A stretch of 26,964 nucleotides of DNA from IMG/VR virus record IMGVR_UViG_3300050821_009523; one strand, given 5' to 3'. Origin of the DNA: a virus (lineage: Duplodnaviria; Heunggongvirae; Uroviricota; Caudoviricetes). Below are positions 5,465 to 25,871 of this stretch, in pieces (position 1 is the stretch's first letter; every line of letters starts with the position of its first letter). Both the position numbers and the translations under genes were made by a program. Below the pieces are notes generated by a model. It made no database searches. It had not been told where the DNA came from and was given only the letters and a program-made list of their open reading frames with translations.

Positions 5465-5493
5465 ATTATATCTCCGGGCGGCAGAGATGTCAA
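5465..5493 (-). promoter_or_regulatory. Perfect-consensus sigma70 promoter (leftward)
   Basis: Minus strand TTGACA (5493-5488), 17 nt spacer, TATAAT (5470-5465). Confidence 0.85.
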
Positions 5494-15133: not shown

Positions 15134-16447
15134 GTGGACTACCGCCCGCTCGGTTATCAGTATCGCATTTTCCGCTCGCCGAAAGAACGGCTGTTCATCG
15201 GAGGCGGAATCGGCGTCGGCAAAACTGACACGGGCAGTGTTTGGACACTGATGCGCGCCAAGCAGGCGCCGGGAGATGTCTTCGGCATTATTGCGGCGCA
15301 CACCTACCAGCAGCTCATCGACGTAACGGTCCGCAACTTCTTCAAAAACCTAGACAATTGGGGCATACCGCATCTCCCAAAGGCCCTACCTGGTAGCTCG
15401 CGCCCATTCACAGTCCGGGTGTGGAATGGCAGTCGGTGGGTGGATCACCTCTGCCGCTCGCTTGATAGTCCCGAGAACCTCTCTGGCCTCGAGGCCGGCT
15501 ACTGGTGGTGTGACGAAGCGTGGCAAGCAACACGCGAGGCGGTTGATATCCTGCTTGCGCGTGACCGCGACAAGCGCATGCACAACCAGGGCCTATTTAC
15601 AACAACCCTTTACGAGCCTACCTCGTGGATGTACGAAACCTTTGTCGAGCGCTTCGACGAGCGCCTCATGGAAGTGATCTATGCGCCGACTTGGCTCAAT
15701 GCAAAGAATCTGCCCGATGGTTACATCAGGCGCATGAAGGCGATGTACAGCGTGCGCCAGTACCAGCGTATGATCGAAGCCAAGTGGGTAACGCTTGCGA
15801 GCGGGCAGGTGTATTATGCCTTCGATCGCAAGGTGCATGTGCAACAGCACGCGGAGTTTGATCCGCATTTGCCGATTCTCTGGACGCACGACTTTAACAT
15901 CGGGCAAAACAAGCCGATGTCAAGCGCGCTGTGTCAGATCAGGCGCGCGATCGGCAAGGACGGCTGGCGGCCGGAGCTCGTTGTCTTCGACGAGCTGGTG
16001 CTAGACAGCAGCGATACTTCGGATTCTATAGCGGAGTTTCGTGCACGCGGTTGGCAAGACAAGCTCAAGACAAAGCACGCTGTCTGGATCTACGGTGACG
16101 CCAGCGGGCGAGCGCACGACACACGCAGCAGGACAAGCGATTACAAGATCCTTGCGGATGCTGGTTTTGTGCAACAGCGTGTGCCGCTTGCGAACCCACA
16201 AATCAGGACACGCCACAATTCTACGAACGCCCTCCTCAAGAACGCTGCCGGAGACGTGCGGTGCTATGTTCACCCACGCTGCACCACGCTGGCGAAAGGT
16301 TTAGAGACTGTCCGCGTTAAAAAGGGCGCGCAGTACGTGGAAGAGCAGACGCGGGAATCGCACATCACATGTTCGTTGGGATATTTAATAGAGGCAGAAT
16401 TCCCCTCCGCGGGGCCACGCGGAGGTTCTATGGAGCTGCCTATATAA
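15134..16447 (+). CDS. terL: Terminase large subunit
   Basis: Walker A GGIGVGKT, Walker B YWWCDEA, coupling motif FTTT, nuclease motifs WTHDFNIG and IYGDASG. Confidence 0.95.
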   Translation: MDYRPLGYQYRIFRSPKERLFIGGGIGVGKTDTGSVWTLMRAKQAPGDVFGIIAAHTYQQLIDVTVRNFFKNLDNWGIPHLPKALPGSSRPFTVRVWNGSRWVDHLCRSLDSPENLSGLEAGYWWCDEAWQATREAVDILLARDRDKRMHNQGLFTTTLYEPTSWMYETFVERFDERLMEVIYAPTWLNAKNLPDGYIRRMKAMYSVRQYQRMIEAKWVTLASGQVYYAFDRKVHVQQHAEFDPHLPILWTHDFNIGQNKPMSSALCQIRRAIGKDGWRPELVVFDELVLDSSDTSDSIAEFRARGWQDKLKTKHAVWIYGDASGRAHDTRSRTSDYKILADAGFVQQRVPLANPQIRTRHNSTNALLKNAAGDVRCYVHPRCTTLAKGLETVRVKKGAQYVEEQTRESHITCSLGYLIEAEFPSAGPRGGSMELPI

Positions 16448-16670
16448 CCTCGTGGTCTGGCACTGCGTCTTCCAAACCCAAGGCCCGTAGACAGATCCGG
16501 CAATTGAGCAACATAAAACCGTCTTGCGGCCTGCCGTCGTGCAGCTCGGGCTGCGGGCCTACGATGTAACCGCAAAGCGCCGGGCCGACAGTTGGGCCAG
16601 CATAATGCCGCACCCAATGTGGATAGCGAGTCTTGAGCCGGAGCTCGAAAACCGATGTCATGCGCGTCAT
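16440..16670 (-). CDS. Small Zn-finger-like protein (76 aa)
   Basis: GGAGG RBS; H...ALCG...NCRIC; convergent with and overlapping the terL stop. Confidence 0.62.
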   Translation of the reverse strand: MTRMTSVFELRLKTRYPHWVRHYAGPTVGPALCGYIVGPQPELHDGRPQDGFMLLNCRICLRALGLEDAVPDHEVI

Positions 16671-16695
16671 GTCAGTACCTCCGCGAGCCACATGC

Positions 16696-16726
16696 GCCGG
16701 CAGGGGGGGGGGCAACCACTGCCGGC
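16696..16726 (-). other. Stem-loop downstream of the precursor-peptide gene containing a G10/C10 homopolymer
   Basis: GCCGGCAG (16696-16703) / CTGCCGGC (16719-16726); G run at 16703-16712. Confidence 0.5.
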
Positions 16727-16740
16727 CAAGTGGACGTGCC

Positions 16741-16947
16741 TTAGCGGTGGTGCGCGTTATCGCAGTTGAACGGCACTAGGTTGGACCCTACCCAACAGAT
16801 GCAGTTGGAAAACCCGTTGCACACGCTGCCATCGCACGTAGCGTAGGTGCCACCGCACAAGAGCGTAATGAAGCCACCCTGCGCGCACCGCAGGTTTCCG
16901 GTTTCCAGGTGGCGTAGCGTCTCACGGTGCAACTTGAGCTTTCTCAT
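16741..16947 (-). CDS. RiPP (lanthipeptide-like, double-glycine) precursor peptide, 68 aa
   Basis: GGGAG RBS; leader MRKLKLHRETLRHLETGNLRCAQGG, then a 43-aa core with 6 Cys and 6 Ser/Thr. Confidence 0.8.
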   Translation of the reverse strand: MRKLKLHRETLRHLETGNLRCAQGGFITLLCGGTYATCDGSVCNGFSNCICWVGSNLVPFNCDNAHHR

Positions 16948-16974
16948 CGTATTGTCTCCCGTATTGCGTTGGCA

Positions 16975-16995
16975 GCACCCGGCGAATCCGGGTGC
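16975..16995. other. Perfect 8-bp hairpin upstream of the precursor gene
   Basis: GCACCCGG-CGAAT-CCGGGTGC; no U-tract on the minus strand. Confidence 0.5.
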
Positions 16996-17006
16996 GCCCG
17001 TACCAG

Positions 17007-17483
17007 TCAGAAAGGAATCTCGCCGTCTTCAGGATGTTTGCGCACATCAGTCACCTCGACGGGATCGCGCATCTTGGCCGATACTACTGCCTCGTAGACA
17101 ACAAACGTCTTGCGTGGTGCGCAGCGGGCCAAATCCTTGGCTTGGTTGACGGCACTCTCTAGTGTTTCGTGCTCGGCGAAGCCCCGCTCCCTGACTTGCG
17201 GCCAAGGGTTTTCTAGACATACAACGATAAAACCTGCGCCTTTCATCTCACTCCCCCCGGTTGTTGCGTTCCAACGGCCGCGGTAGCGCTGCATGTTGGT
17301 GGGCGTCTCGGCTATCAGTACTGCCATCACGCTGCTAACGGCGGCATGCTGTAGCGCGCCAATGTTCCCCTCTTGCCGCGCTAGGGCTGTACGCAGGAAA
17401 GTAAACTCCGTGCGCACCTCGCCGCGCAGGCGGTGCAGCTCGGTTGTGATGCGGCCGAGGGCTTCTTTGGTTTCGGCGTCCAT
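17007..17483 (-). CDS. Hypothetical protein (158 aa); probable internal start at 17246 giving a 79-aa C-terminal product ending DGEIPF
   Basis: TGATG-coupled start at 17483; GGGGGGAG RBS before in-frame ATG 17246. Confidence 0.6.
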   Translation of the reverse strand: MDAETKEALGRITTELHRLRGEVRTEFTFLRTALARQEGNIGALQHAAVSSVMAVLIAETPTNMQRYRGRWNATTGGSEMKGAGFIVVCLENPWPQVRERGFAEHETLESAVNQAKDLARCAPRKTFVVYEAVVSAKMRDPVEVTDVRKHPEDGEIPF

Positions 17484-17662
17484 CAGCATACCGGCAGCTG
17501 CCGCTCCGCAAGGCGCAGATAGCGCCGCGCAGCGTGCGCAGCCCATGCGGCGTACCGGCGTGCGCGCTCGGGTTCTACTGGCGCCTGCAAGCAAACGCGC
17601 GTCCAGGCGCCGAGAAATTGTGCCTCGTCGCGGTAGTGCTCTAAAGCCTCCGCAGCATTCAT
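17483..17662 (-). CDS. Small hypothetical protein (59 aa)
   Basis: AGGAG RBS just 3' of the tRNA-like CCA end. Confidence 0.65.
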   Translation of the reverse strand: MNAAEALEHYRDEAQFLGAWTRVCLQAPVEPERARRYAAWAAHAARRYLRLAERQLPVC

Positions 17663-17678
17663 CACTAGCTCCTGTGTA

Positions 17679-17754
17679 TGGCGCGGCGTGCGGGGATCGA
17701 ACCCGCCGCTTCCGGGCTACAAGGCCGGCGCGTCACCGTTGGCGCTCCCGCCGC
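17679..17754 (-). tRNA. Degenerate tRNA-Thr(UGU)-like gene, 76 nt, with encoded CCA
   Basis: GCGGCGG/ACGCCGC acceptor, D loop with GG, anticodon arm CCGGC-CTTGTAG-CCCGG, T arm GCGGG-TTCGATC-CCCGC, 3' GCCA; several non-canonical positions. Confidence 0.75.
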
Positions 17755-19165
17755 TCTCGTCGTCGCTGTCTACTGCCTGCGCTTGCGTATCGACGCCCTC
17801 CTCGATCGCGATCCACTCCACAACGCGCTCCGAGAAGCCAGAGATGCGCCGCCAGCCGGCCGACGTATCAATGCTCGGCTTATACGGCGCCACGTTGATG
17901 ATGTAGTTGTGGGTGCCGAGGCGCCGTGCCGTCGCGGGGTTGGCCTTGTGGTCGCAGTCCTGTTCGTCCGTAAAGACGATCACGCGGGCAAACGGCTGCT
18001 CGCCGAGCGTGCGCAGTTTGTCGGCGATCCAGTCCATGCACTGCTTCAGGAAGATGCCGCCACCACCAAGCTGGCAAGGTGCGTGGTGGATCGCATCCCG
18101 CAGGGCAAACCCGCGACGCGGCGGCAGGGCGGCAGTGGCGTGCTGCTGTCGGTGATCGCACCCGCCCGTGGCGTAGATCTCCACGTCCTCGCATACCTCG
18201 CGCACCAGCATCGCTAGCCCGCAGGCCGCATCGATGCGGTCCAGCGTGGACTTGCCGCCAAGCGCGCCGCCCATGCTGCCTGACACGTCCACTACCAGCG
18301 CGGTGCGGCCCGGTAGCTTGGGCATCGCGCCGAGGGACGCGAGCATGGCCTGCTCAAGGGCCGGCTCGTACGCAGGGGCGGCCTTTGCAGCCGCGATGTA
18401 GCGGTAGGGCAGTACCTTGGCATGGGGCGCGCCAGCCACCAGCGCTACGCGCGCGATGCTGCGGTCTACACCTGCCTGCTCCATGTTGCGGAGATTCTGC
18501 AAAAGCGCAGAATAGCCCAGCAGCTTGCCGGCCAATAAGCGCTCCCACGTCGCTTTCTTGTCCGCACCGCTGGAAAGCGCCACCTCCCAGGTGTCGGGGG
18601 CAGCAAGCGTGCCGTCCACGAGCTGCTTCCAAAGTGCGGCTTGCGCCTCGTCCTTGGGCTTGGCGTGACAGAGAAACAGCGCATCCCGCAGCTTCACCTT
18701 GCTGTCGCGGTTCCACTTGGCAAGCTGATACTCGGAGAAGCGCTGAAAGGCGAACGCGAGCCCGCGCTTCACCTGTGCGGCAAGCGGTTGTCGCTTCTCT
18801 TGCCAGTAGAGCGAAAGAAACTCGCTGCACTCGTCCGGCCGGCGGATCACGGCCGCCAGCGTGTCGCCCGCAAGCCGGCTGCCGGGGTGCAGGCGCACCA
18901 ACTGGCGTACGAGGTACAGCGGGACGTGCCGCAGGTGCATGCTGGTGCGCGCCTCAACGGCCAGCGCGGCCAACTCCTCGGGCCGCACCTTGGCGCACAG
19001 CTCGGTGACACGGGCCGCGATGCTGCTGCCTGTCTCGTAGAACGTGTCCTCGAATAGCAAGCACGTCGAGACGGCGCGCCGCAGCTCGGCAAACGCGGTT
19101 TGCGGGCCTGCCTTGGCGCCCTCGTGCGTCGTGGCGGTAGTGCGTGCTGCGGTGTTGGTCTTCAT
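17717..19165 (-). CDS. rsr: Ro60-related TROVE + VWA RNA-binding protein (482 aa)
   Basis: ELRRAVSTCLLFEDTFYE, EARTSMHLRHVP, LAKWNR, VKLRDALFLCHAKP, PDTWEVALS, LLQNLRN, LPYRY, VWA MIDAS-like VVDVSGSM and VIVFTDEQ; GGGAGG RBS before ATG 19165. Confidence 0.95.
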   Translation of the reverse strand: MKTNTAARTTATTHEGAKAGPQTAFAELRRAVSTCLLFEDTFYETGSSIAARVTELCAKVRPEELAALAVEARTSMHLRHVPLYLVRQLVRLHPGSRLAGDTLAAVIRRPDECSEFLSLYWQEKRQPLAAQVKRGLAFAFQRFSEYQLAKWNRDSKVKLRDALFLCHAKPKDEAQAALWKQLVDGTLAAPDTWEVALSSGADKKATWERLLAGKLLGYSALLQNLRNMEQAGVDRSIARVALVAGAPHAKVLPYRYIAAAKAAPAYEPALEQAMLASLGAMPKLPGRTALVVDVSGSMGGALGGKSTLDRIDAACGLAMLVREVCEDVEIYATGGCDHRQQHATAALPPRRGFALRDAIHHAPCQLGGGGIFLKQCMDWIADKLRTLGEQPFARVIVFTDEQDCDHKANPATARRLGTHNYIINVAPYKPSIDTSAGWRRISGFSERVVEWIAIEEGVDTQAQAVDSDDESGGSANGDAPAL

Positions 19166-19193
19166 GGCGTACTGGCCTCCCGGTCCAGGCACT

Positions 19194-19278
19194 ATCTTGG
19201 TCACGAAAGGAATGGACGCCGGCAGGAGGATCTTCTTAAGAGGAAGTACCTGCAAGCTACGCCATCTCGTGGCCAAGG
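19194..19278 (-). ncRNA. Y-RNA-like unit C (minimal, no tRNA domain)
   Basis: Shared 22-nt motif TGGCGTAGCTTGCAGGTACTTC (19264-19243); closing stems GCAGG/CCTGC, ATGG/CCAT and CTTGG-CACGA/TCGTG-CCAAG. Confidence 0.65.
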
Positions 19279-19292
19279 TCAAACTCTCATAC

Positions 19293-19437
19293 CTTGTCCC
19301 TGGGGGTACAAGCGGGCAGAGTGTCTTGCTCCTGGTGCTCTACCAACTGAGCTAACGGCCTTACGGCCGTGGCGGACTCGAACCGCCGACCCCCAGGTCC
19401 AGTGAAGTATCTCTGCTCTACGCCACCCAAGGGCAAG
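19293..19437 (-). ncRNA. yrlA: YrlA-type Y RNA with circularly permuted tRNA-like domain (unit B)
   Basis: 5' GGGTGGCGTAGAGCAGAGATACTTC; CCTGG, T arm GGCGG-TTCGAGT-CCGCC, acceptor stem ACGGCC-GTAA-GGCCGT, D arm GCTC-AGTTGGTA-GAGC, CCAGG; 3' CTCTGC...CTTGTACCCC; adjacent to the Ro60 gene. Confidence 0.9.
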
Positions 19438-19455
19438 AGCGTTTTCAAGGATCAT

Positions 19456-19537
19456 GCTTAACGGCGCGGGTACAAGCGACGCGAGGGGTTTTCTGCCAAA
19501 GAGAAGTACCTCGAATCTGCGCCACGCACCGCCAAGC
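19456..19537 (-). ncRNA. Y-RNA-like unit A (minimal, no tRNA domain)
   Basis: Motif TGGCGCAGATTCGAGGTACTTC (19524-19503), 3' CGCTTGTACCC as in unit B; outer stem GCTTGGCGGTGCG/CGCGCCGTTAAGC. Confidence 0.75.
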
Positions 19538-19543
19538 GGCGGC

Positions 19544-19573
19544 AGCGTACCAGTTTCAACGTGCGGCTGTCAA
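19544..19573 (-). promoter_or_regulatory. sigma70-type promoter for the Y RNA-Ro60 unit
   Basis: TTGACA (19573-19568), 18 nt, TACGCT (19549-19544) with TG extension; the predicted start (~19537) coincides with the 5' end of unit A. Confidence 0.72.
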
Positions 19574-20167
19574 GCGAGAGTAGGGACGATCGTGCACGGC
19601 GCGCTCCATTTCCTCGCACTGTTCAGCGAGGCCAGCGCACGGCTCAAACCACCCGACAGCGCCGGCCAGCGTGCCGAGGGCCATTACGGCCGCATCCGCA
19701 AGCCCTATGCCGCGGCTGCGCGCGTAGAAGCAGATATCGGTTAACCTAGCACCATCGATGCGCAGTGGATGAAAGACAAGCTCACCCGCCGTCCACATCT
19801 CGGTCACTGCCGTTACATCGATGGCAGCGTATTCGTAAGGCCACAGGCAAACCGACGCCCACGGCAAACGGCAGATCACCTTGTAGCTACCATTGGGTGC
19901 GAACCCTACTGCGTCGGCATTGGGTAAGTGCTCTGCGTAGAAAATGCGGCCTACGCGGAACTCTTTGTCGGCGCCGCCCTCTATTGGCGGCAGTTTGCGC
20001 GTGATCATCACCCAAGCGCCGGTCGCTGCTATGCGCTGGCGTTCGCCTGGCGAGTAGACTTCGAGATTGGCTGGATCACCGCAAAGCCTACAGGCAAGAC
20101 CATCTTTTGCATCCTTGGTAAGCTCATAACTGTCAGCAGACACGCGGGCTATTGCCTTTCTCTTCAT
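19556..20167 (-). CDS. Hypothetical protein (203 aa)
   Basis: GGGAGG RBS; CRLC motif; no family recognised. Confidence 0.75.
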   Translation of the reverse strand: MKRKAIARVSADSYELTKDAKDGLACRLCGDPANLEVYSPGERQRIAATGAWVMITRKLPPIEGGADKEFRVGRIFYAEHLPNADAVGFAPNGSYKVICRLPWASVCLWPYEYAAIDVTAVTEMWTAGELVFHPLRIDGARLTDICFYARSRGIGLADAAVMALGTLAGAVGWFEPCAGLAEQCEEMERAVHDRPYSRLTAAR

Positions 20168-20187
20168 CTTGGGGCCTCCCGGCTTTG

Positions 20188-20233
20188 TAAAACAACGAAA
20201 TGCGGCCGGCCGAGCGCAAGCCCAACCGGCCGC
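20188..20233 (-). terminator. Candidate intrinsic terminator
   Basis: GCGGCCGG/CCGGCCGC stem followed on the minus strand by ATTTCGTTGTTTT. Confidence 0.55.
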
Positions 20234-20246
20234 GGAGTTGCTATAG

Positions 20247-20618
20247 CTATAGCCCTATTGCCTCGATCAGGCCGCACACCCGCGCAACCTCGGCCTTGGC
20301 GATCGCCACCACCCGGGAGACAGCCTCGGCAGGCGCATTGCCGTCTGCGTGCCACCTATCAAGATGGGCGCAATAGCCTCGGCCGCGCAGCGGACGTACG
20401 TCGATTGCGCCACCAGCAGCTACCGCCGCGTAATGCCAACCGAGGTACTCCCACACGCGAGGCGTCCAGCCGTCGCCAAGCGCCGCCACCAGCGTGGCGG
20501 CACGGCGCTGCGCCTCGTTGTGTTCTGCGCGCGTGCATCCAAAACCGCAAGCTGGCGAGCAATACATGTCCCCGCGTTCTACGGGCGTCCAACGCAGTGC
20601 CTTCCTGTCGGCAACCAT
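20247..20618 (-). CDS. Hypothetical phage protein (123 aa)
   Basis: WTP...YCSPACGFGCTRAEH...GWTPRVWEYLGWHY; alternative GTG start at 20639. Confidence 0.75.
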   Translation of the reverse strand: MVADRKALRWTPVERGDMYCSPACGFGCTRAEHNEAQRRAATLVAALGDGWTPRVWEYLGWHYAAVAAGGAIDVRPLRGRGYCAHLDRWHADGNAPAEAVSRVVAIAKAEVARVCGLIEAIGL

Positions 20619-20635
20619 GTCAGCACCCCAACCCC

Positions 20636-21790
20636 TCACGCCGCGTACCGCAGGAGCGCCGAGCCGCGCTGCTCTAGCGCCAGCCGGTCGTCTTGGTGCT
20701 GGATGCTGCGCGCCTTGGCCGTGACGCCCTGCACGATCTGCCAGAGCGTGCGGGCGTCGCCCTCCTCGGCCTTTGCGCTTTCGATGATCTGCGTGGCCTC
20801 ACCCTTGGCGAATGCCTGCTTACGCAGCCACGCGATCACCTCGTCGTCCGTGTTGCCGAGTTTGAAACGGCTGGCGGCTTCTAGGCGACGCTTCACGTCC
20901 TGGACGCTGGCGTCCGCATACTTGGCCAGCATGGGCTGTGCCTCGCGCCGGAAGCGGTCCGGGCCGCCGGCCGTGTGCCGCACAGTGAAGGTCTTGACCT
21001 CCTCGGCGCCCCAGATCGTGCGGTTGTCGCAGCAGTAGTCGTACAGGAAAGTCATCAGCCCAAACGTGGCGCTGCCCACCTCGCTATTCCACGTAATGAA
21101 GCCGCGGTGCAGGTTGCGCACGCCGTCGCCCTCCAAGCGGATCTCCACGTCATGCGCCTCGTCCACCAGAAAGATGAAGCAGTCACGGTCGCTGGCGTAC
21201 AGTGTGGTGGCGCGCTGCGGGTTCTGCGCCTTGTAGCTCGCGCTTGGCACATGCCAGCGGCCGTCTTGGTTGACGTCGATCACGGCCTGCACCACCTCGC
21301 GGTCGTAGATCCGGCCGTAGTCGCGGCCCGTGATGCAGCGCAGGGTGTCGATTGGTGGCCGGCCGGCCTGCTCCCAAGCCTGCAACTCGGCCTCGGTCGT
21401 AGCCATGGGGCCATTCTCGGCCATGATCTGCACCGAGTCTTTGGCGGCGAGCATCTGGATGCCGTAGTTGAGGGCATAGGATGCGAGCGATGGGCCGCCC
21501 GTGTGCGTGCCGATCGTACGGAGCCACTTGGCGGGCACCTGCGCCATGCTGGCCAACTGTCCAAACGACCAATGTGTTGGTGCCAGCATCCCCATCTCGG
21601 TGTCGATGAGCAGCTCACTGCCGGCCTTGTCCTCGCCCTGCACCTTGAAGTGCTTGTTGGGCGTCACCTGTACCTCGCAACGCTCGGCGCGCGCCGTGAC
21701 GGCGGCTAGCAGCGATTCGAGGGTGAGGTAGCGCTCGTCTGCTGGACGTGCGGCCCACTGCGCCGATGCGATACTGAGATCCTGTGACAT
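20636..21790 (-). CDS. DUF932 family protein (384 aa)
   Basis: WAARPADERY, LRCITGRDYGRIYD, LYASDRDCFIFL, RGFITWNSEVG, CCDNRTIWG, RHTAG; GGGAGG RBS. Confidence 0.85.
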   Translation of the reverse strand: MSQDLSIASAQWAARPADERYLTLESLLAAVTARAERCEVQVTPNKHFKVQGEDKAGSELLIDTEMGMLAPTHWSFGQLASMAQVPAKWLRTIGTHTGGPSLASYALNYGIQMLAAKDSVQIMAENGPMATTEAELQAWEQAGRPPIDTLRCITGRDYGRIYDREVVQAVIDVNQDGRWHVPSASYKAQNPQRATTLYASDRDCFIFLVDEAHDVEIRLEGDGVRNLHRGFITWNSEVGSATFGLMTFLYDYCCDNRTIWGAEEVKTFTVRHTAGGPDRFRREAQPMLAKYADASVQDVKRRLEAASRFKLGNTDDEVIAWLRKQAFAKGEATQIIESAKAEEGDARTLWQIVQGVTAKARSIQHQDDRLALEQRGSALLRYAA

Positions 21791-21866
21791 GGCGTTGCCT
21801 CCCGTGTTTGCCGGCTTGTACCGGCGGTTGCTGCGGCACGTTTACGCCGCAGGTGGTTACTCTTTC

Positions 21867-21950
21867 TTAGCGCGATGGTCGTCGCTGATTGAGGCGCTGC
21901 CCCCCACGTCGCTGATTGATCTCCGGGAGGGTTTGGGTTGCGGTGGGCAT
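21867..21950 (-). CDS. Arg-rich leader-like peptide (27 aa)
   Basis: GGAGA RBS; MPTATQTLPEINQRRGGQRLNQRRPSR; contains a 13-bp direct repeat. Confidence 0.45.
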   Translation of the reverse strand: MPTATQTLPEINQRRGGQRLNQRRPSR

Positions 21951-22023
21951 CTCTCGTCTCCTGTGCCGGCAGGGTAACCGGCTTGGTTGTGCGGCGCCCG
22001 GCGCCGCAGGTGTCAACGGAGAG

Positions 22024-22051
22024 AGTGTACCAGTTTGACGGGATAACGCAA
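22024..22051 (-). promoter_or_regulatory. Candidate leftward promoter of the accessory block
   Basis: TTGCGT-N16-TACACT with TG extension (TGGTACACT). Confidence 0.6.
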
Positions 22052-22095
22052 GTCCCTAGTGCGACTAGGTAATGGCAGCCGCGCGGCAAAGGCGG

Positions 22096-22101
22096 TACAC
22101 T
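22096..22101 (+). promoter_or_regulatory. Candidate rightward -10 element
   Basis: TACACT; the predicted start (~22107) coincides with the 5' strand of a long-range stem; -35 is weak (ATGGCA). Confidence 0.4.
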
Positions 22102-22104
22102 AAG

Positions 22105-22270
22105 CGGCCGTGGGAGCGCGCCAATCCCGATGGCGGGCGCTAAGCAGGGAATAGGACTCTGGCGACCTTAGGCAAGCGCCGGGACATCCACGGCCGGGTA
22201 GCGCAGTGGCCGGCGGAAGCCGCCTCGACAGCCGCAGACGCCCAGCGGCAGTGGAAAGGCGGCACTGCGC
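22105..22270 (+). ncRNA. Putative structured RNA / 5' leader with two multibranch domains
   Basis: CGGCCGTGG (22105-13) / CCACGGCCG (22188-96) and GCGCAGTG (22201-08) / CACTGCGC (22263-70) with internal hairpins. Confidence 0.45.
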
Positions 22271-22295
22271 GCAGGTAAACCCACAGAGGGGCTAC

Positions 22296-22778
22296 ATGAC
22301 AGACCGGCTAGAGTTTGACGAAGAGTCCACCAAGGCACTGCCCATGGAAACACCCGCGGCAGTCCTTGCGGTGGCGCGCGCAGAGCGGTGGCTGGCCGAG
22401 ACTGTAGCAGCCGATAGATCGGCGGCACAGTTCACACGCGCCTTAGCCGCGGTGATGGGCGCAGGCAAGGTAGGGCACACCATTTCGCCTAGTGTCCTGA
22501 ATGCCCAAACACAGCTGGGGGCAGCGCACGCTGCCTACCACGCCGCTTGGCAGGCCGGCTGGCCTGTGCTGCAGGGCTACATCGCGATCGAGCTGGACGG
22601 CAGGCGGGTGCTACGGCGCGAGGTAGCAGAGAAGCCAGAGCTGCTGCCGGGCGAGATCGAGATATCCACGGTTGGGACGCTGGTGCCGGCCTACGTGACG
22701 GGGCCGCGTCGTGGCGCAGAGCCGGAGTACTACCCCGCGCTGCCGCCCAGCACTGCACGCAAGCCCTGGCTGCGGTAG
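22296..22778 (+). CDS. Hypothetical protein (160 aa)
   Basis: AGAGGGG RBS before ATG 22296. Confidence 0.7.
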   Translation: MTDRLEFDEESTKALPMETPAAVLAVARAERWLAETVAADRSAAQFTRALAAVMGAGKVGHTISPSVLNAQTQLGAAHAAYHAAWQAGWPVLQGYIAIELDGRRVLRREVAEKPELLPGEIEISTVGTLVPAYVTGPRRGAEPEYYPALPPSTARKPWLR

Positions 22779-22787
22779 TGGCCTGCT

Positions 22788-23059
22788 GCCGCAGATGACC
22801 CGCTGCGGCGCCGGGGGCAGGAGGCTTGCGCCTCCCCACCGCCACCCGATCGCTGCAACGCTCACGGAGGATCGGGACTCCGGCCCCGTCAGCCCAACCT
22901 ACAGGCCGGCCGGGGGCACCACCTAGCGCCTACGCCGCCGCCGGGTGCGCTAGGACACCGGATCGCGGCGGCTTACGCGGCCGGGGTGGGCCGGTGCAGC
23001 CTAGGCGGCCCAATCCCCTTCCCCCCGCGCACCACCAACCCGCACCCCGGCAAGCCGGT
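22788..23059. other. Hairpin-dense non-coding region
   Basis: At least six 6-9 bp inverted repeats in ~270 nt; no convincing ORF. Confidence 0.4.
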
Positions 23060-24011: not shown

Positions 24012-25871
24012 GTGGCCTACGACGCGAGCTTTGATCAGTCGCCTGCGTACGCCCCTGCCATTGGCATGGGCGGCAACATCGATACGCCAACCATGAACTG
24101 GTACAGGGGGGAGATACGCCGCCGGCTTTCGCGCTTGCTGATGGGCGGTACCGAGGCGATGCGCGTGGCGGCCGGCAGCGGCGGCCCGGTTGCGTACATC
24201 AGCAGCAACGTGCAGAACCCGCAGGAAATCGGCACTCTGCGAGCGATGCCAAGTGTGCTACCTATCGAAAAGGGTGAAACGCAGGAAGAGTATACTACGA
24301 GACGCGACAGAAGCGTATTATTCTCCTATTTCAAGGACGCGATTGATGAGCACGTAGGGCGCGCTTTTCACCAGCCGCCGCAACTGCTCGATGACGTGCC
24401 GACCTTTATCCGTGGGGATATTCAGCATACGGAAATCCTTGTCGATGACGAGGATAACCCAGGCCAAAAGAAACCCATTAAGAAGACGAAGAAGATCGCA
24501 ACCGGCATCTGGGAGAACATCGATAATCAAGGCAACCACGGTGATGTGTTTGGGCGCGCCTTGTGGGCAGCGGCTGAGATCGATGGCATTACGTTTGTGC
24601 TGGTGGAGCGCACGCCTGGGCCGCGAGATCAAGCTGGCGCACCGCTGGCGCAGAGCGTGGCGGACCGAAAGGCAACGGACGGCAGGGTATATTGGGTGCA
24701 TCTCCTTGCTGAGGATTGCATCGAAATAACCCCCAGGATGTACAACGGTGCCCCGCGGCTATCTGTGTGGCGACACCGCGAGCGCATGGTGCTGGCAAGG
24801 GGTGCGGTGGTGCACCGCGTTAGGAAGTTCATCGACGGGCTGCACCCTGGCGAATATAGCGATCCGCGGCAGGCCAACTTTATCCCGCCGGATAACCCGT
24901 CGCGCTTGGCCCGCTGGGAGCTGTACGAGGAGCCCGATGAGGTCCGCACGATGGCGGACCAGACAAAGCGCGAGCAGCAGGGCTGGGGGCCACCGATCGA
25001 GCAGGGTTACCTATCGCTGCCGTTCATCCCGATTGTGCCGTTCTTCTTCGGCGACAAGATCGACTTCTGGCAGGCGGACCCGGCGGCCAAAGGGTTGGCC
25101 GAGGCCAACGGCGTGCACTACCGCGTATATAGCGACTACCTCGATTTGTTGCACGCCGCGTGCGTCCCGATGCTGCACCGCAGCGGGTGGTCGCCCAGCA
25201 TGACGGACCCGAGTAACCCGCAAAATGTGGTATCGAGCAAGCGGTTGTTGTGGACGATGGACCCGGCAGGGCGCGCCGAGTGGGTGGAGGTGCGCGGTAG
25301 CTCGTTGCAGCGCATTGAGGCTAGCTTGGACCGCATCGAGGCACGCTGCCAGGTGCTGTCGCTTGAGCCGCTGTTGCAGCGTTTGGGGACGCCTACCGCT
25401 ACGGCCGAGGGGCTAAAGGCCGCCAAGGCCAACAGCCGGATCGAGGCGTGGATGGTGCTGTACAAGGATAGCATGGAGCTGTGCCTCGATTATAGTGCGC
25501 AGTATGAGGGAATGCCGGAGGATTCAGGCGGCAGCGTTTCGACCAACAAGGACCTCGGCTTGTTTATCCTTGGGGGCGTGGACTTCAACTTGCTGCTGGC
25601 GCTGAATGCAGCGGGGAAAATCGACGACGGTACGTTGCTGTTTGAGGCCAAACGGCGCGGTATCTTGCACATGGACGCAGATATCGACGACATCAAGCGG
25701 CTGGCAAGAATCGAGCAGCAGAATGCCGCCTCGCGCATGCGTGGCACTGCGCTGCCGCTTGGGCAACAGCCGCCAAACGCTACAGCCCAGACAGAGGAAA
25801 AGGCGTCGCAGCCACCGCCGATTCCGCCGGGCGAGGGCGAGGCACGTGGTGCGCGGGCGCCAGTTGGGTAG
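24012..25871 (+). CDS. Phage portal protein (DUF4055-type)
   Basis: RSVLFSYFKDAIDEHVGRAFHQPP, NIDNQGN, GITFVLVE, FIPIVPF, LAEANGVHYRVYSDYLDLLHAACVPML, TATAE. Confidence 0.88.
   Translation: MAYDASFDQSPAYAPAIGMGGNIDTPTMNWYRGEIRRRLSRLLMGGTEAMRVAAGSGGPVAYISSNVQNPQEIGTLRAMPSVLPIEKGETQEEYTTRRDRSVLFSYFKDAIDEHVGRAFHQPPQLLDDVPTFIRGDIQHTEILVDDEDNPGQKKPIKKTKKIATGIWENIDNQGNHGDVFGRALWAAAEIDGITFVLVERTPGPRDQAGAPLAQSVADRKATDGRVYWVHLLAEDCIEITPRMYNGAPRLSVWRHRERMVLARGAVVHRVRKFIDGLHPGEYSDPRQANFIPPDNPSRLARWELYEEPDEVRTMADQTKREQQGWGPPIEQGYLSLPFIPIVPFFFGDKIDFWQADPAAKGLAEANGVHYRVYSDYLDLLHAACVPMLHRSGWSPSMTDPSNPQNVVSSKRLLWTMDPAGRAEWVEVRGSSLQRIEASLDRIEARCQVLSLEPLLQRLGTPTATAEGLKAAKANSRIEAWMVLYKDSMELCLDYSAQYEGMPEDSGGSVSTNKDLGLFILGGVDFNLLLALNAAGKIDDGTLLFEAKRRGILHMDADIDDIKRLARIEQQNAASRMRGTALPLGQQPPNATAQTEEKASQPPPIPPGEGEARGARAPVG

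What the first reader, a model, noticed from the sequence alone, without database searches (positions are those of the whole stretch)
17679..19573. Self-contained phage Ro60-Y RNA module: promoter, three Y RNAs, Ro60 gene, tRNA-like cap
Seen: on the minus strand a TTGACA-N18-TG-TACGCT promoter points into three tandem stem-loop units sharing a 22-nt motif (TGGCGYAG-N6-AGRTACTTC). These are followed directly by a full TROVE+VWA gene and a tRNA-like element. Established: bacterial Ro60 (Rsr) binds Y RNAs, tethers to PNPase in Deinococcus, and lies in an RNA-repair operon with RtcB in Salmonella; a few phage-encoded Ro60/YrlA pairs have been reported. Inference: this phage carries a richer version with three distinct RNAs and no RtcB/RtcR in the window. 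It may redirect host RNA decay or buffer tRNA/RNA damage from anti-phage ribonucleases.
Basis: partly seen in the sequence, partly recalled or inferred. Interest (0 to 1): 0.92.

Follow-up and report, generated by a model that had tools for sequence, protein, structure and literature searches.

The report
Phage Ro60 gene with three Y RNAs
A 97-kb phage carries a gene for the ring-shaped RNA-binding protein Ro60 preceded by three small structured "Y RNA" genes. This is a real but typical example of a protein-RNA pairing already described in phages and bacteria, not a richer or new version.

Summary
On the minus strand a promoter-like site (19544-19573) leads into three structured RNA units (19455-19538, 19291-19439, 19195-19278). 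These are followed by a full Ro60 gene (17717-19165) and a 76-nt tRNA-like element (17679-17754).

Its first half is a variant of the published Ro60-binding motif GNCGAAN0-1G.

Unit 2 is a YrlA-type Y RNA with a permuted tRNA-like domain (Rfam YrlA E 3e-9, below the curated cut-off). Units 1 and 3 are short hairpin Y RNAs with no Rfam family. Covariation strongly supports both folds.

A model built from the short units hit only the Ro60 strand, upstream of the gene: 55 of 55 hits across the window and phage loci (training sequences included), and 61 of 61 in bacterial loci that were not used to build it.

Three units is the commonest array size (range 0-7). Cultured Xanthomonas and Caulobacter phages carry 5 and about 8.

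The tRNA-like element is degenerate, absent from the closest relative and not a conserved part of the module. The genome has no RtcB.

Phage Ro60 with Y RNAs is published (Chen 2014; phiLo 2025), and this scan has noted similar arrays on many other genomes. Verdict: new member of a known kind, moderate to low interest.

The parts
19544..19573 (-). Sigma-70-like promoter: -35 TTGACA (19568-19573), 18-nt spacer with extended -10 TG (19551-19552), -10 TACGCT (19544-19549). The predicted start falls at the base of unit 1.
   Evidence: Read. The pattern is found 2 times in the window against 0.2 expected. A perfect TTGACA plus TAnnnT sits 13-31 nt before the first unit in L001, L002, L004, L013, L017 and L023. 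It is also visible in L019 and Olaya L038. The stricter scan did not call it.
19455..19538 (-). Y-RNA-like unit 1, short hairpin type. It has a 13-bp terminal stem, the UGGCGCAG motif with a 3' CGCUUGUACC bulge strand, a 5-8 bp upper stem, and a UACUUC apical hairpin.
   Evidence: Model R1 59.9 bits, E 1e-13. Covariation in alignment A1. Single-sequence fold z -2.2. No Rfam family matches.
19291..19439 (-). Y-RNA-like unit 2, YrlA type. It has the same docking stem and carries a permuted tRNA-like domain: T-arm GGCGG-UUCGAGU-CCGCC, acceptor-like hairpin ACGGCC-GUAA-GGCCGU, and UA plus D-arm GCUC-AGUUGGUA-GAGC.
   Evidence: Rfam YrlA RF02553 at 19312-19417: 48.4 bits, E 3.3e-9, below the gathering score of 69. 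R1 39.2 bits. Alignment A3 of 24 such units has compensatory changes at 26 of 31 pairs.
19195..19278 (-). Y-RNA-like unit 3, short hairpin type. Motif UGGCGUAG, variant 3' strand GGCGUCCAUUCC, apical hairpin CUUC/GAAG.
   Evidence: R1 59.2 bits, E 2e-13. It is a close homologue of the last unit in L019. The same variant 3' strand occurs in L003, L021 and L022.
19176..19181 (-). Ribosome-binding site GGGAGG, 10 nt before the Ro60 ATG.
   Evidence: Read directly.
17717..19165 (-). Ro60 (TROVE HEAT-repeat ring plus vWA domain with MIDAS DVSGS), 482 aa. The last ~22 residues are a non-conserved, disordered tail read from the tRNA-like element.
   Evidence: Pfam TROVE. PHROG 850. phmmer to phiLo Ro60 9KOP/9L5Y at 1e-22 over residues 9-453. 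AlphaFold2 plus Foldseek gives Ro60 structures as the top 13 hits. Homologues start MKTN..., so ATG 19165 is the start, not TTG 19282.
17679..17754 (-). Degenerate tRNA-Thr(UGU)-like element with encoded CCA. It overlaps the last 12 codons of Ro60, and the Ro60 stop TAG lies in its anticodon loop. It is probably not a conserved part of the module.
   Evidence: ARAGORN. Rfam tRNA 30.4 bits against 52-66 bits for tRNAs in related loci. It has G8 and no A14, and mismatches at 7-66, 13-22 and 31-39. It is the only tRNA call in the genome. It is absent in L019.

Best explanation
This is a phage copy of the Ro60-Y RNA ribonucleoprotein system.

A sigma-70-type promoter most likely starts one transcript at the foot of unit 1. 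That transcript runs through three Y-RNA-like units, the Ro60 mRNA and the tRNA-like element, and continues into downstream ORFs. The three RNAs are then cut out of this precursor, as shown for Mycobacterium smegmatis YrlA and YrlB.

Each RNA closes with the same bulged stem (5' UGGCGYAG, 3' CG-YUUGUW-CC). This stem is a variant of the published Ro60-binding motif GNCGAAN0-1G, and the Ro60 ring docks on it. The top of each RNA differs. Unit 2 displays a permuted tRNA mimic (YrlA type). Units 1 and 3 display a small UACUUC hairpin.

By analogy with Deinococcus, Salmonella and Thermus phage phiLo, these tops act as tethers or gates that connect Ro60 to host factors, most likely the 3'-to-5' exoribonuclease PNPase. 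During infection the phage would then redirect or restrain host decay of structured RNA.

Shown here: the gene content, the RNA folds, and their strict linkage to Ro60. Inferred: co-transcription, processing, Ro60 binding, and the PNPase link.

The tRNA-like element is most likely a decaying phage tRNA gene that the Ro60 reading frame has run into, not a functional part of the module.
For: Protein:
- TROVE scores above the Pfam cut-off.
- The only sequence matches in the PDB are phiLo phage Ro60, at 1e-22, with DVSGSM and TDEQ of the vWA MIDAS site aligned.
- The model matches 13 Ro60 structures.

RNAs:
- Rfam YrlA E 3.3e-9 for unit 2.
- Short-unit alignment A1: 13 of 14 pairs have compensatory changes and 95.6% of cells are paired, against 64% in shuffles. 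The covariation score is 0.85, against 0.21 in shuffles and 0.12-0.24 when partners are slid.
- YrlA-type alignment A3: 26 of 31 pairs are compensatory, including the T, acceptor-like and D stems.

Linkage:
- Model R1 gives exactly three hits in the 97-kb genome.
- 55 of 55 hits across the window and phage loci (training sequences included) and 61 of 61 hits in bacterial loci not used in training lie upstream of Ro60 on its strand.
- The motif is 52-fold enriched there.

Promoter.

Precedent:
- phiLo Ro60 binds two upstream Yrl RNAs and host PNPase (PMC12135203).
Against: - No RNA data. No sequencing run could be listed, so transcription, processing and stable accumulation of the three RNAs are unshown.
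- Unit 2 falls below Rfam's curated YrlA cut-off (48.4 against 69 bits).
- The window's motif deviates from GNCGAAN0-1G at one position (GGCGUAG or GGCGCAG rather than GGCGAAG).
- The -10 hexamer is weak (3 of 6), and the upstream ORF ends inside the -35, so read-through from upstream is possible.
- Nothing in the sequence identifies PNPase as the partner. In phiLo the complex attenuated PNPase rather than activating it, so the direction of the effect is open.
Confidence: 0.78

Rival explanations
1. The three units are mainly a cis-acting structured leader of the Ro60 mRNA. Ro60 binds its own 5' UTR for feedback control, or the structures stabilise the message. They are not released, trans-acting Y RNAs.
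For: The units lie 12-16 nt apart and end 29 nt before the ATG. No terminator-like site on this strand separates them from Ro60. All 116 model hits are upstream on the same strand, which a leader would also explain.
Against: In loci L044, L047, L052 and L053 the nearest unit lies 1.2-1.7 kb from the start codon, which is too far for a simple leader. Units carry elaborate tRNA mimics with conserved T and D loops, and in L002 a whole tRNA. M. smegmatis YrlA and YrlB, in the same upstream position, are processed and bound by Rsr as separate RNAs (PMC4201824). The two roles are not mutually exclusive.
Confidence: 0.12
2. The units are remnants of a decayed tRNA gene array, or tRNA-derived repeats with no Ro60-related function. 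Their position next to Ro60 only reflects both sitting in phage tRNA regions.
For: ARAGORN calls parts of several units as tRNAs. GenBank annotates one CcrColossus unit as tRNA-Gln. Real tRNA genes flank Ro60 in L002, L012, L014, L017 and L021.
Against: The conserved, covarying helices are the non-tRNA terminal and upper stems. Short units have no tRNA features at all. The first half of the motif matches the published Ro60-binding motif. The association holds in bacterial loci that ARAGORN finds to have no tRNA outside the array. Decaying sequences would not keep 95% base-pairing with compensatory changes.
Confidence: 0.03
3. For the tRNA-like element only: it is a working tRNA-Thr(UGU), or a deliberate RNase P/RNase Z processing or stability signal. 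In that case it couples tRNA release to truncation of the Ro60 mRNA, because the RNase P site lies 38 nt before the stop codon.
For: It has a complete cloverleaf with G1-C72 and C2-G71, a canonical T-loop, U33, A37 and an encoded CCA, and it scores above Rfam's tRNA cut-off. ACA and ACG make up 59% of Thr codons in the phage's confident ORFs. Several phage relatives have real tRNAs just after Ro60, only 9 nt after it in L021.
Against: It scores 30.4 bits against 52-66 for neighbouring phage tRNAs. It has G8 and lacks A14, so the universal U8-A14 pair cannot form, and three helices have terminal mismatches. Its acceptor and T arms resemble phage tRNA-Gly rather than tRNA-Thr. It is absent from the 74%-identical relative, whose Ro60 ends about 21 residues earlier. 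The tail it encodes is predicted disordered.
Confidence: 0.25

Closest known systems
Thermus phage phiLo Ro60 with Yrl1 and Yrl2 (PMC12135203; PDB 9KOP, 9L5Y)
   Same: A phage-encoded Ro60 with Y-RNA-like hairpins described as lying next to the gene on the same strand. The hairpins carry a CGAA-type motif in a stem-bulge-stem, three such hairpins in all. The phage has no PNPase or RtcB of its own. It is the only PDB match by sequence (1e-22) and the best match by fold.
   Different: Only 28% identical. My model of the window's units finds nothing upstream of the phiLo gene. It finds one weak hit (21.6 bits) just after the gene, so the RNAs belong to a different sub-family. No tRNA-like domain is reported for the phiLo Yrl RNAs.
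Caulobacter phage CcrColossus gp139 (TROVE protein) with YrlA-like RNA, listed among the phages of Chen et al. 2014 (as cited in PMC12135203)
   Same: Same Ro60 clade (45% identity). Same unit architecture and motif, TGGCGTAG-N5-NGNTACTTC, upstream on the same strand.
   Different: It has about 8 units (7 by model R1) instead of 3. It is a 280-kb jumbo phage. GenBank annotates one unit as tRNA-Gln. I could not read the 2014 supplement, so I do not know how many of the units were reported.
Salmonella Typhimurium Rsr with YrlA and YrlB in the rsr-yrlBA-rtcBA RNA-repair operon (PMC4201824, PMC7790460)
   Same: Ro60 with two kinds of Y RNA: one a tRNA mimic (YrlA), the other a plain hairpin (YrlB). 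The GNCGAAN0-1G motif sits near the 5' end. YrlA forms a complex with PNPase.
   Different: The phage has no RtcB or Rnl-type ligase. Here the RNAs precede rather than follow the Ro60 gene. The window's units have an extra 5-8 bp helix plus a UACUUC element between the motif and the apical domain. Unit 2 does not reach the Rfam YrlA cut-off.
Mycobacterium smegmatis YrlA and YrlB (PMC4201824)
   Same: Both RNAs lie upstream of rsr and are processed from one precursor. That is the layout proposed here.
   Different: M. smegmatis YrlA has a 7-bp acceptor-like stem that RNase P cuts, followed by CCA addition. The window's unit 2 has a closed 6-bp hairpin with a GUAA loop.
Deinococcus radiodurans Rsr-Yrn1-PNPase (RYPER) complex (PMC4201824)
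   Same: This is the functional model: a Y RNA tethers Ro60 to PNPase for decay of structured RNA. Several small RNAs are encoded upstream of rsr.
   Different: Yrn1 is considered to have evolved independently from YrlA. There is no detectable sequence similarity to the window's units.

Membership tests
Ro60 / Rsr (TROVE plus vWA) | TROVE (HEAT-repeat ring) domain above the curated Pfam cut-off | tested here: met
   PF05731 scores 48.6 bits against a cut-off of 23, and 51.1 bits on residues 1-275.
Ro60 / Rsr (TROVE plus vWA) | C-terminal vWA domain with a MIDAS motif (DxSxS ... T ... D) | tested here: met
   DVSGS at about residues 293-297 and TDEQD at about 399-403 align with phiLo Ro60 and are invariant in 30 homologues. 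The model has a Rossmann-like beta-alpha region at 284-455. Pfam vWA_Ro60 alone is below its cut-off (17.4 against 27.7 bits).
Ro60 / Rsr (TROVE plus vWA) | Overall fold like solved Ro60 structures | tested here: met
   The top 13 Foldseek PDB hits are Ro60 from phage phiLo, Xenopus, human and Deinococcus: E 2e-16 to 2e-9, TM 0.57-0.68, full-length alignments.
Ro60 / Rsr (TROVE plus vWA) | NCBIfam equivalog Rsr (NF041674) | tested here: not met
   26.2 bits against a cut-off of 900. The protein is a distant Ro60, not an Rsr equivalog.
Ro60 / Rsr (TROVE plus vWA) | Binds Y RNAs | not testable with these tools
   Needs EMSA or RIP.
YrlA (Rfam RF02553) | Score at or above Rfam's gathering threshold | tested here: not met
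   48.4 bits against 69, although E is 3.3e-9. All 11 YrlA hits in related phage loci are also below threshold, at 32-49 bits.
YrlA (Rfam RF02553) | GNCGAAN0-1G motif near the 5' end (PMC4201824) | tested here: inconclusive
   The window has GGCGCAG, GGCGUAG and GGCGUAG, which differ from the motif at one position. Relatives have the exact GGCGAAG at the same column.
YrlA (Rfam RF02553) | Permuted tRNA-like domain: T-arm, acceptor-like stem-loop and D-arm, in that order | tested here: met
   Unit 2 has GGCGG-UUCGAGU-CCGCC, ACGGCC-GUAA-GGCCGU, and UA-GCUC-AGUUGGUA-GAGC. All three stems covary in 24 homologues.
YrlA (Rfam RF02553) | Encoded within 4 kb of Ro60 on the same strand | tested here: met
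   It lies 126 nt upstream of the ATG on the same strand.
Short hairpin Y RNAs (YrlB / Yrn2 type; no curated model) | Long hairpin closed by the 5' and 3' ends, Ro-binding motif, small pyrimidine-rich apical loop, encoded beside Ro60 (PMC4201824) | tested here: met
   This applies to units 1 and 3: a 13-bp terminal stem, the motif, an upper stem, and a UACUUC/CUUC-GAAG apical hairpin. There is no sequence homology test, because no family model exists and Rfam gives no hit.
tRNA (RF00005), for the 3' element | Cloverleaf above the Rfam cut-off with the canonical tertiary nucleotides (U8, A14, G18G19, T-loop) | tested here: inconclusive
   30.4 bits against a cut-off of 29, and ARAGORN calls Thr(UGU). 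However, it has G8 and no A14, and three stem-end mismatches. It is not conserved in the nearest relative.
Rsr-RtcB RNA-repair operon | RtcB ligase encoded with Ro60 | tested here: not met
   There is no PF01139 match in the complete 97-kb genome, and the control genomes do give matches. There is also no Rnl-type ligase or CCA-adding enzyme. RtcR and RtcA were not searched.

The most novel reading that the evidence does not exclude
In this Ro60 clade the gene is regularly preceded by an array of Y-like RNAs: 0-7 by motif count in 45 loci (only one had none), about 8 by eye in CcrColossus. All share one Ro60-docking stem but carry interchangeable tops. The tops seen are permuted tRNA mimics, a plain UACUUC hairpin, long hairpins, and in one phage a complete tRNA-Met. 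The array would be a set of adaptors that lets one Ro60 ring be directed to several different host partners. The short UACUUC class would be a Y RNA family that has no Rfam model and, as far as I could read, no description. Module swapping between close relatives suggests fast diversification under host-phage conflict: the window's tRNA mimic is replaced by a long hairpin in the 74%-identical phage.
Probability: 0.35. Interest if true: 0.55.

Novelty: new member of a known kind. Interest (0 to 1): 0.35.

Why it matters
For this window alone it matters little. It adds one more phage to a class known since 2014 and studied biochemically in 2025.

The comparative result has more practical value.
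- The same RNA units sit unannotated, or annotated as tRNAs, in cultured phages. Examples are Xanthomonas phages of the Olaya group and Caulobacter phage CcrColossus, and probably also the Brevundimonas jumbo phages, whose Ro60 genes fall in the same clade but whose upstream regions I did not examine.
- In those phages the open question, what a phage Ro60 particle does during infection, can be tested with ordinary genetics.
- A covariance model such as the one built here would let annotators find the short Y RNAs that Rfam misses. It would also correct false tRNA calls inside these arrays.

Tried and rejected
- Public sequencing runs. None was listed for the locus, with kind 'any' or kind 'rna'. 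Expression could therefore not be examined, and this says nothing either way.
- attP hypothesis for the tRNA-like element. Rejected as unlikely: the complete genome has no tyrosine or serine recombinase, the element is a full cloverleaf rather than a 3' half, and it sits between the terminase and portal genes.
- Exact search for the element's T-arm and acceptor strand in viral contigs. It found only ordinary tRNAs, mostly tRNA-Gly, in phage tRNA arrays, none next to Ro60.
- TTG 19282 as the Ro60 start, which is the longest ORF. Rejected because it would overlap unit 3 and homologues begin at MKTN.
- Relatives search for a virus record. Not available.
- Defining unit ends with RNAduplex. This gave many wrong long-range pairings. 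I replaced it with motif-anchored stem scoring and then a covariance model.
- Two reviews on bacterial Y RNAs (PMC10870794, PMC6047535) and the supplement of Chen 2014 are not held. I could not check how many units per phage were already reported.
- Model R1 on crAss001, Ralstonia phage RsoM2USA and Rhizobium phage TM30 Ro60 loci. It found nothing significant, so those Ro60 genes either use other RNA types or have none nearby.
Full report
**Context**

The window is bases 5388-32351 of a single-contig virus record of 97,023 bp and 63% GC. CheckV rates the record complete. A terminase large subunit gene (15134-16447, plus strand) and a portal gene (24012-25871, plus strand) flank a leftward-transcribed block that contains the finding. 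The genome has no tyrosine or serine recombinase, so nothing indicates that the phage integrates.

**What is in the sequence**

Read on the minus strand, the elements are:
- TTGACA at 19568-19573, an 18-nt spacer ending in TGG, and TACGCT at 19544-19549.
- Three units, each with TGGCG[CT]AG, five variable bases, then AG[GA]TACTTC.
- GGGAGG ten bases before an ATG at 19165.
- A 482-codon ORF ending at 17717.
- A 76-nt cloverleaf at 17679-17754, whose 5' half encodes the last 12 codons. The ORF's TAG stop lies in its anticodon loop.

AGRTACTTC occurs three times in the 97-kb genome, all of them here. The promoter pattern TTGACA-N16-19-TAnnnT occurs twice in the window against 0.2 expected. The stricter built-in promoter scan did not call this site, because the -10 matches only 3 of 6 positions.

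**The protein**

- Pfam TROVE is above its cut-off, and PHROG 850 'RNA-binding protein' scores 6e-42.
- The only sequence matches among solved structures are the Ro60 of Thermus phage phiLo (1e-22, residues 9-453). The vWA MIDAS residues DVSGSM and TDEQ are aligned.
- An AlphaFold2 model built on 30 homologues has mean pLDDT 84.7. Its 13 best PDB matches are all Ro60 structures: phiLo, Xenopus, human and Deinococcus.
- Residues 461-482 are predicted disordered. They are missing from the closest homologue, which is 74% identical and ends ...EWIAVEEGFVGDN.
- Homologues begin MKTN, which fixes the start at 19165 rather than at the longer TTG ORF.

**The RNAs**

Rfam's YrlA model matches unit 2 (19312-19417) at 48.4 bits, E 3.3e-9. 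That is significant but below the curated 69 bits. Nothing in Rfam matches units 1 or 3.

Unit 2 has the YrlA order of parts:
- a T-arm, GGCGG-UUCGAGU-CCGCC;
- an acceptor-like hairpin, ACGGCC-GUAA-GGCCGU;
- UA followed by a D-arm, GCUC-AGUUGGUA-GAGC.

All three units close with a terminal stem of about 13 bp.

I fetched 18 viral contigs with Ro60 at 42-53% identity. Four closer metagenomic relatives came, two cultured phages, and 22 bacterial MAG loci.

The motif, allowing up to 3 substitutions, occurs at 2.65 per kb in the 1 kb upstream of Ro60 on its strand. Elsewhere it occurs at 0.05 per kb.

An alignment of 21 short units (A1) gives a consensus fold with two helices:
- a terminal helix that ends with GG paired to CC;
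- an upper helix formed by the variable middle of the motif.

In this fold 13 of 14 pairs show compensatory changes. 95.6% of cells are paired, against 64% in shuffles. The covariation score is 0.85, against 0.21 in shuffles and 0.12-0.24 when partners are slid.

The conserved unpaired parts are CGNA on the 5' side, a YUUGUU bulge on the 3' side, and UACUUC. UACUUC starts a small apical hairpin, seen as UUCU/AGAA, UUCA/UGAA or CUUC/GAAG.

An alignment of 24 YrlA-type units that includes unit 2 (A3) supports the same two helices plus the T, acceptor-like and D stems. There, 26 of 31 pairs have compensatory changes.

**Linkage to Ro60**

A covariance model built from A1 (R1) gives these results:
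- exactly three hits in the window and in the whole genome: 19455-19538, 19291-19439 and 19195-19278;
- 55 hits across the window and 22 phage loci, which include the sequences the model was trained on;
- 61 hits in 22 bacterial loci that were not used to build it.

Every one of the 116 hits is upstream of Ro60 on its strand. The bacterial loci are mostly Acidobacteriota MAGs. They also include Asticcacaulis, Hyphomonadaceae, Dongiaceae, Desulfonema, Anaerolineales and Bacillota.

**How the window compares**

Over 45 loci the motif count per locus is 0 (1 locus), 1 (3), 2 (10), 3 (14), 4 (6), 5 (6), 6 (4) and 7 (1). The window's order, short then YrlA-type then short, recurs in L006 and L022. 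So three units is the commonest state, not an enriched one.

Xanthomonas phage Olaya has five units in an unannotated 700-nt gap before a 'hypothetical protein' that is Ro60. Caulobacter phage CcrColossus has about eight.

A perfect TTGACA followed by TAnnnT at the right spacing sits just before the first unit in six further viral loci. It is also visible in L019 and Olaya. This supports the promoter by position.

In the closest relative (L019) the unit homologous to unit 2 keeps the same flanks, but a long hairpin replaces the tRNA mimic. Apical modules are therefore exchanged between close relatives.

**The tRNA-like element**

- It is the only tRNA call in the genome.
- It scores 30.4 bits, against 52-66 bits for tRNAs in related loci.
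- It has G8 and lacks A14, and it has mismatches at 7-66, 13-22 and 31-39.
- Its acceptor and T arms look like phage tRNA-Gly.
- It is absent in L019 and absent downstream of Ro60 in all bacterial loci.
- Real tRNAs do follow Ro60 in L002, L012, L014, L017 and L021.

I read it as a decaying phage tRNA gene that the Ro60 frame has extended into. A working tRNA or a processing signal is not excluded (about 25%). If RNase P did cut at 17754, the Ro60 message would lose its stop codon.

**What is not there**

The genome has no RtcB, no Rnl-type RNA ligase and no CCA-adding enzyme. No terminator-like site on this strand closes the module, and another ORF starts 17 nt after the tRNA-like element. 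The module is therefore not self-contained.

**Comparison with the literature**

Chen et al. 2014 (PMC4201824) reported the following:
- YrlA-like RNAs next to Ro60 in 254 bacteria and 22 phages;
- the GNCGAAN0-1G motif, proposed as the Ro60 binding site;
- processing of both M. smegmatis RNAs from one precursor upstream of rsr.

The first half of the window's motif is that binding motif with one deviating base, and relatives have the exact GGCGAAG.

The phiLo study (PMC12135203) showed that a phage Ro60 binds two upstream Yrl RNAs, which contain three CGAA hairpins in all. It also showed complexes with host PNPase that attenuate its activity. That paper names CcrColossus among the phages with known Y-like RNAs.

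This scan has itself recorded over a thousand notes on Ro60 with tandem Y-like RNAs in other genomes.

**Mechanism and verdict**

Most likely a single transcript from the promoter carries three Y RNAs and the Ro60 message. The RNAs are excised, and Ro60 docks on their common bulged stem. Their different tops connect the ring to host factors, with PNPase the best-supported candidate.

Gene content, folds and linkage are shown here. Transcription, processing, binding and the partner are inferred.

The finding is real and correctly identified, but it is a typical member of a known kind. The points that go beyond the papers I could read are:
- the size and regularity of the arrays;
- the short UACUUC class, which has no Rfam model;
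- the swapping of apical modules between close relatives.

Noticed in passing
L002:2852-2994: One Y-like unit in a viral contig has, as its apical module, a complete un-permuted tRNA-Met(CAT) (2887-2960; ARAGORN call, Rfam tRNA 53 bits). The tRNA sits between the usual TGGCGTAA...ATACTTC 5' strand and the GATTGTTCC 3' strand. It may be a Y RNA that releases, or presents, a real tRNA.
   Followed up: partly
L039:1253-1320 (Caulobacter phage CcrColossus NC_019406, tRNA-Gln D866_gt024): The annotated tRNA-Gln lies inside a Y-like unit (motif at L039 1255; R1 hit 1241-1421). ARAGORN also calls 'tRNAs' inside Y units in L001, L002, L012, L014, L018, L038 and several bacterial loci. These are probably false tRNA annotations.
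   Followed up: partly
L038:1750-2400 (Xanthomonas phage Olaya MW802488, 18913-19563): A 700-nt unannotated gap holds five Y-like units before a gene annotated 'hypothetical protein' that is a Ro60 (48% identical to the window's). Ten further Xanthomonas/Xylella phage records match the same gene. These are cultured phages suitable for experiments.
   Followed up: partly
L019:5667-5785: In the closest relative (74% identical Ro60, 106-kb contig) the unit homologous to the window's unit 2 has identical flanks (GCTCTTGCCCTTGGGTGG...). A 26-bp perfect hairpin replaces the tRNA-like domain. Two further upstream units lack the TACTTC motif.
   Followed up: partly
L066:3470-3549 (Thermus phage phiLo MH673673): A weak match to the unit model (21.6 bits, contains GGGUACUUC) lies directly after the phiLo Ro60 stop codon and overlaps the start of the annotated CDS phiLo_25. 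The published Yrl1 and Yrl2 are described as lying upstream.
   Followed up: no
window 5465-5493 (-): A near-consensus sigma-70 promoter, TTGACA-N17-TATAAT. It is the only other match to the promoter pattern in the window.
   Followed up: no
whole genome (G000): Among 51 confident long ORFs, the stop codons are TGA 20, TAG 19 and TAA 12. That looks like a high share of TAG.
   Followed up: no
window 16270-23000 (-): The Ro60 module lies in a leftward-transcribed block of small ORFs with no recognised family. The block is inserted between the rightward terminase and portal genes, an unusual place for accessory genes.
   Followed up: no
L067 (Bacteroides phage crAss001 NC_049977, gp96): crAss001 and about 20 related Bacteroides phages encode a Ro60 at 38% identity, but model R1 finds no units nearby. 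A 900-nt unannotated gap follows the gene.
   Followed up: no
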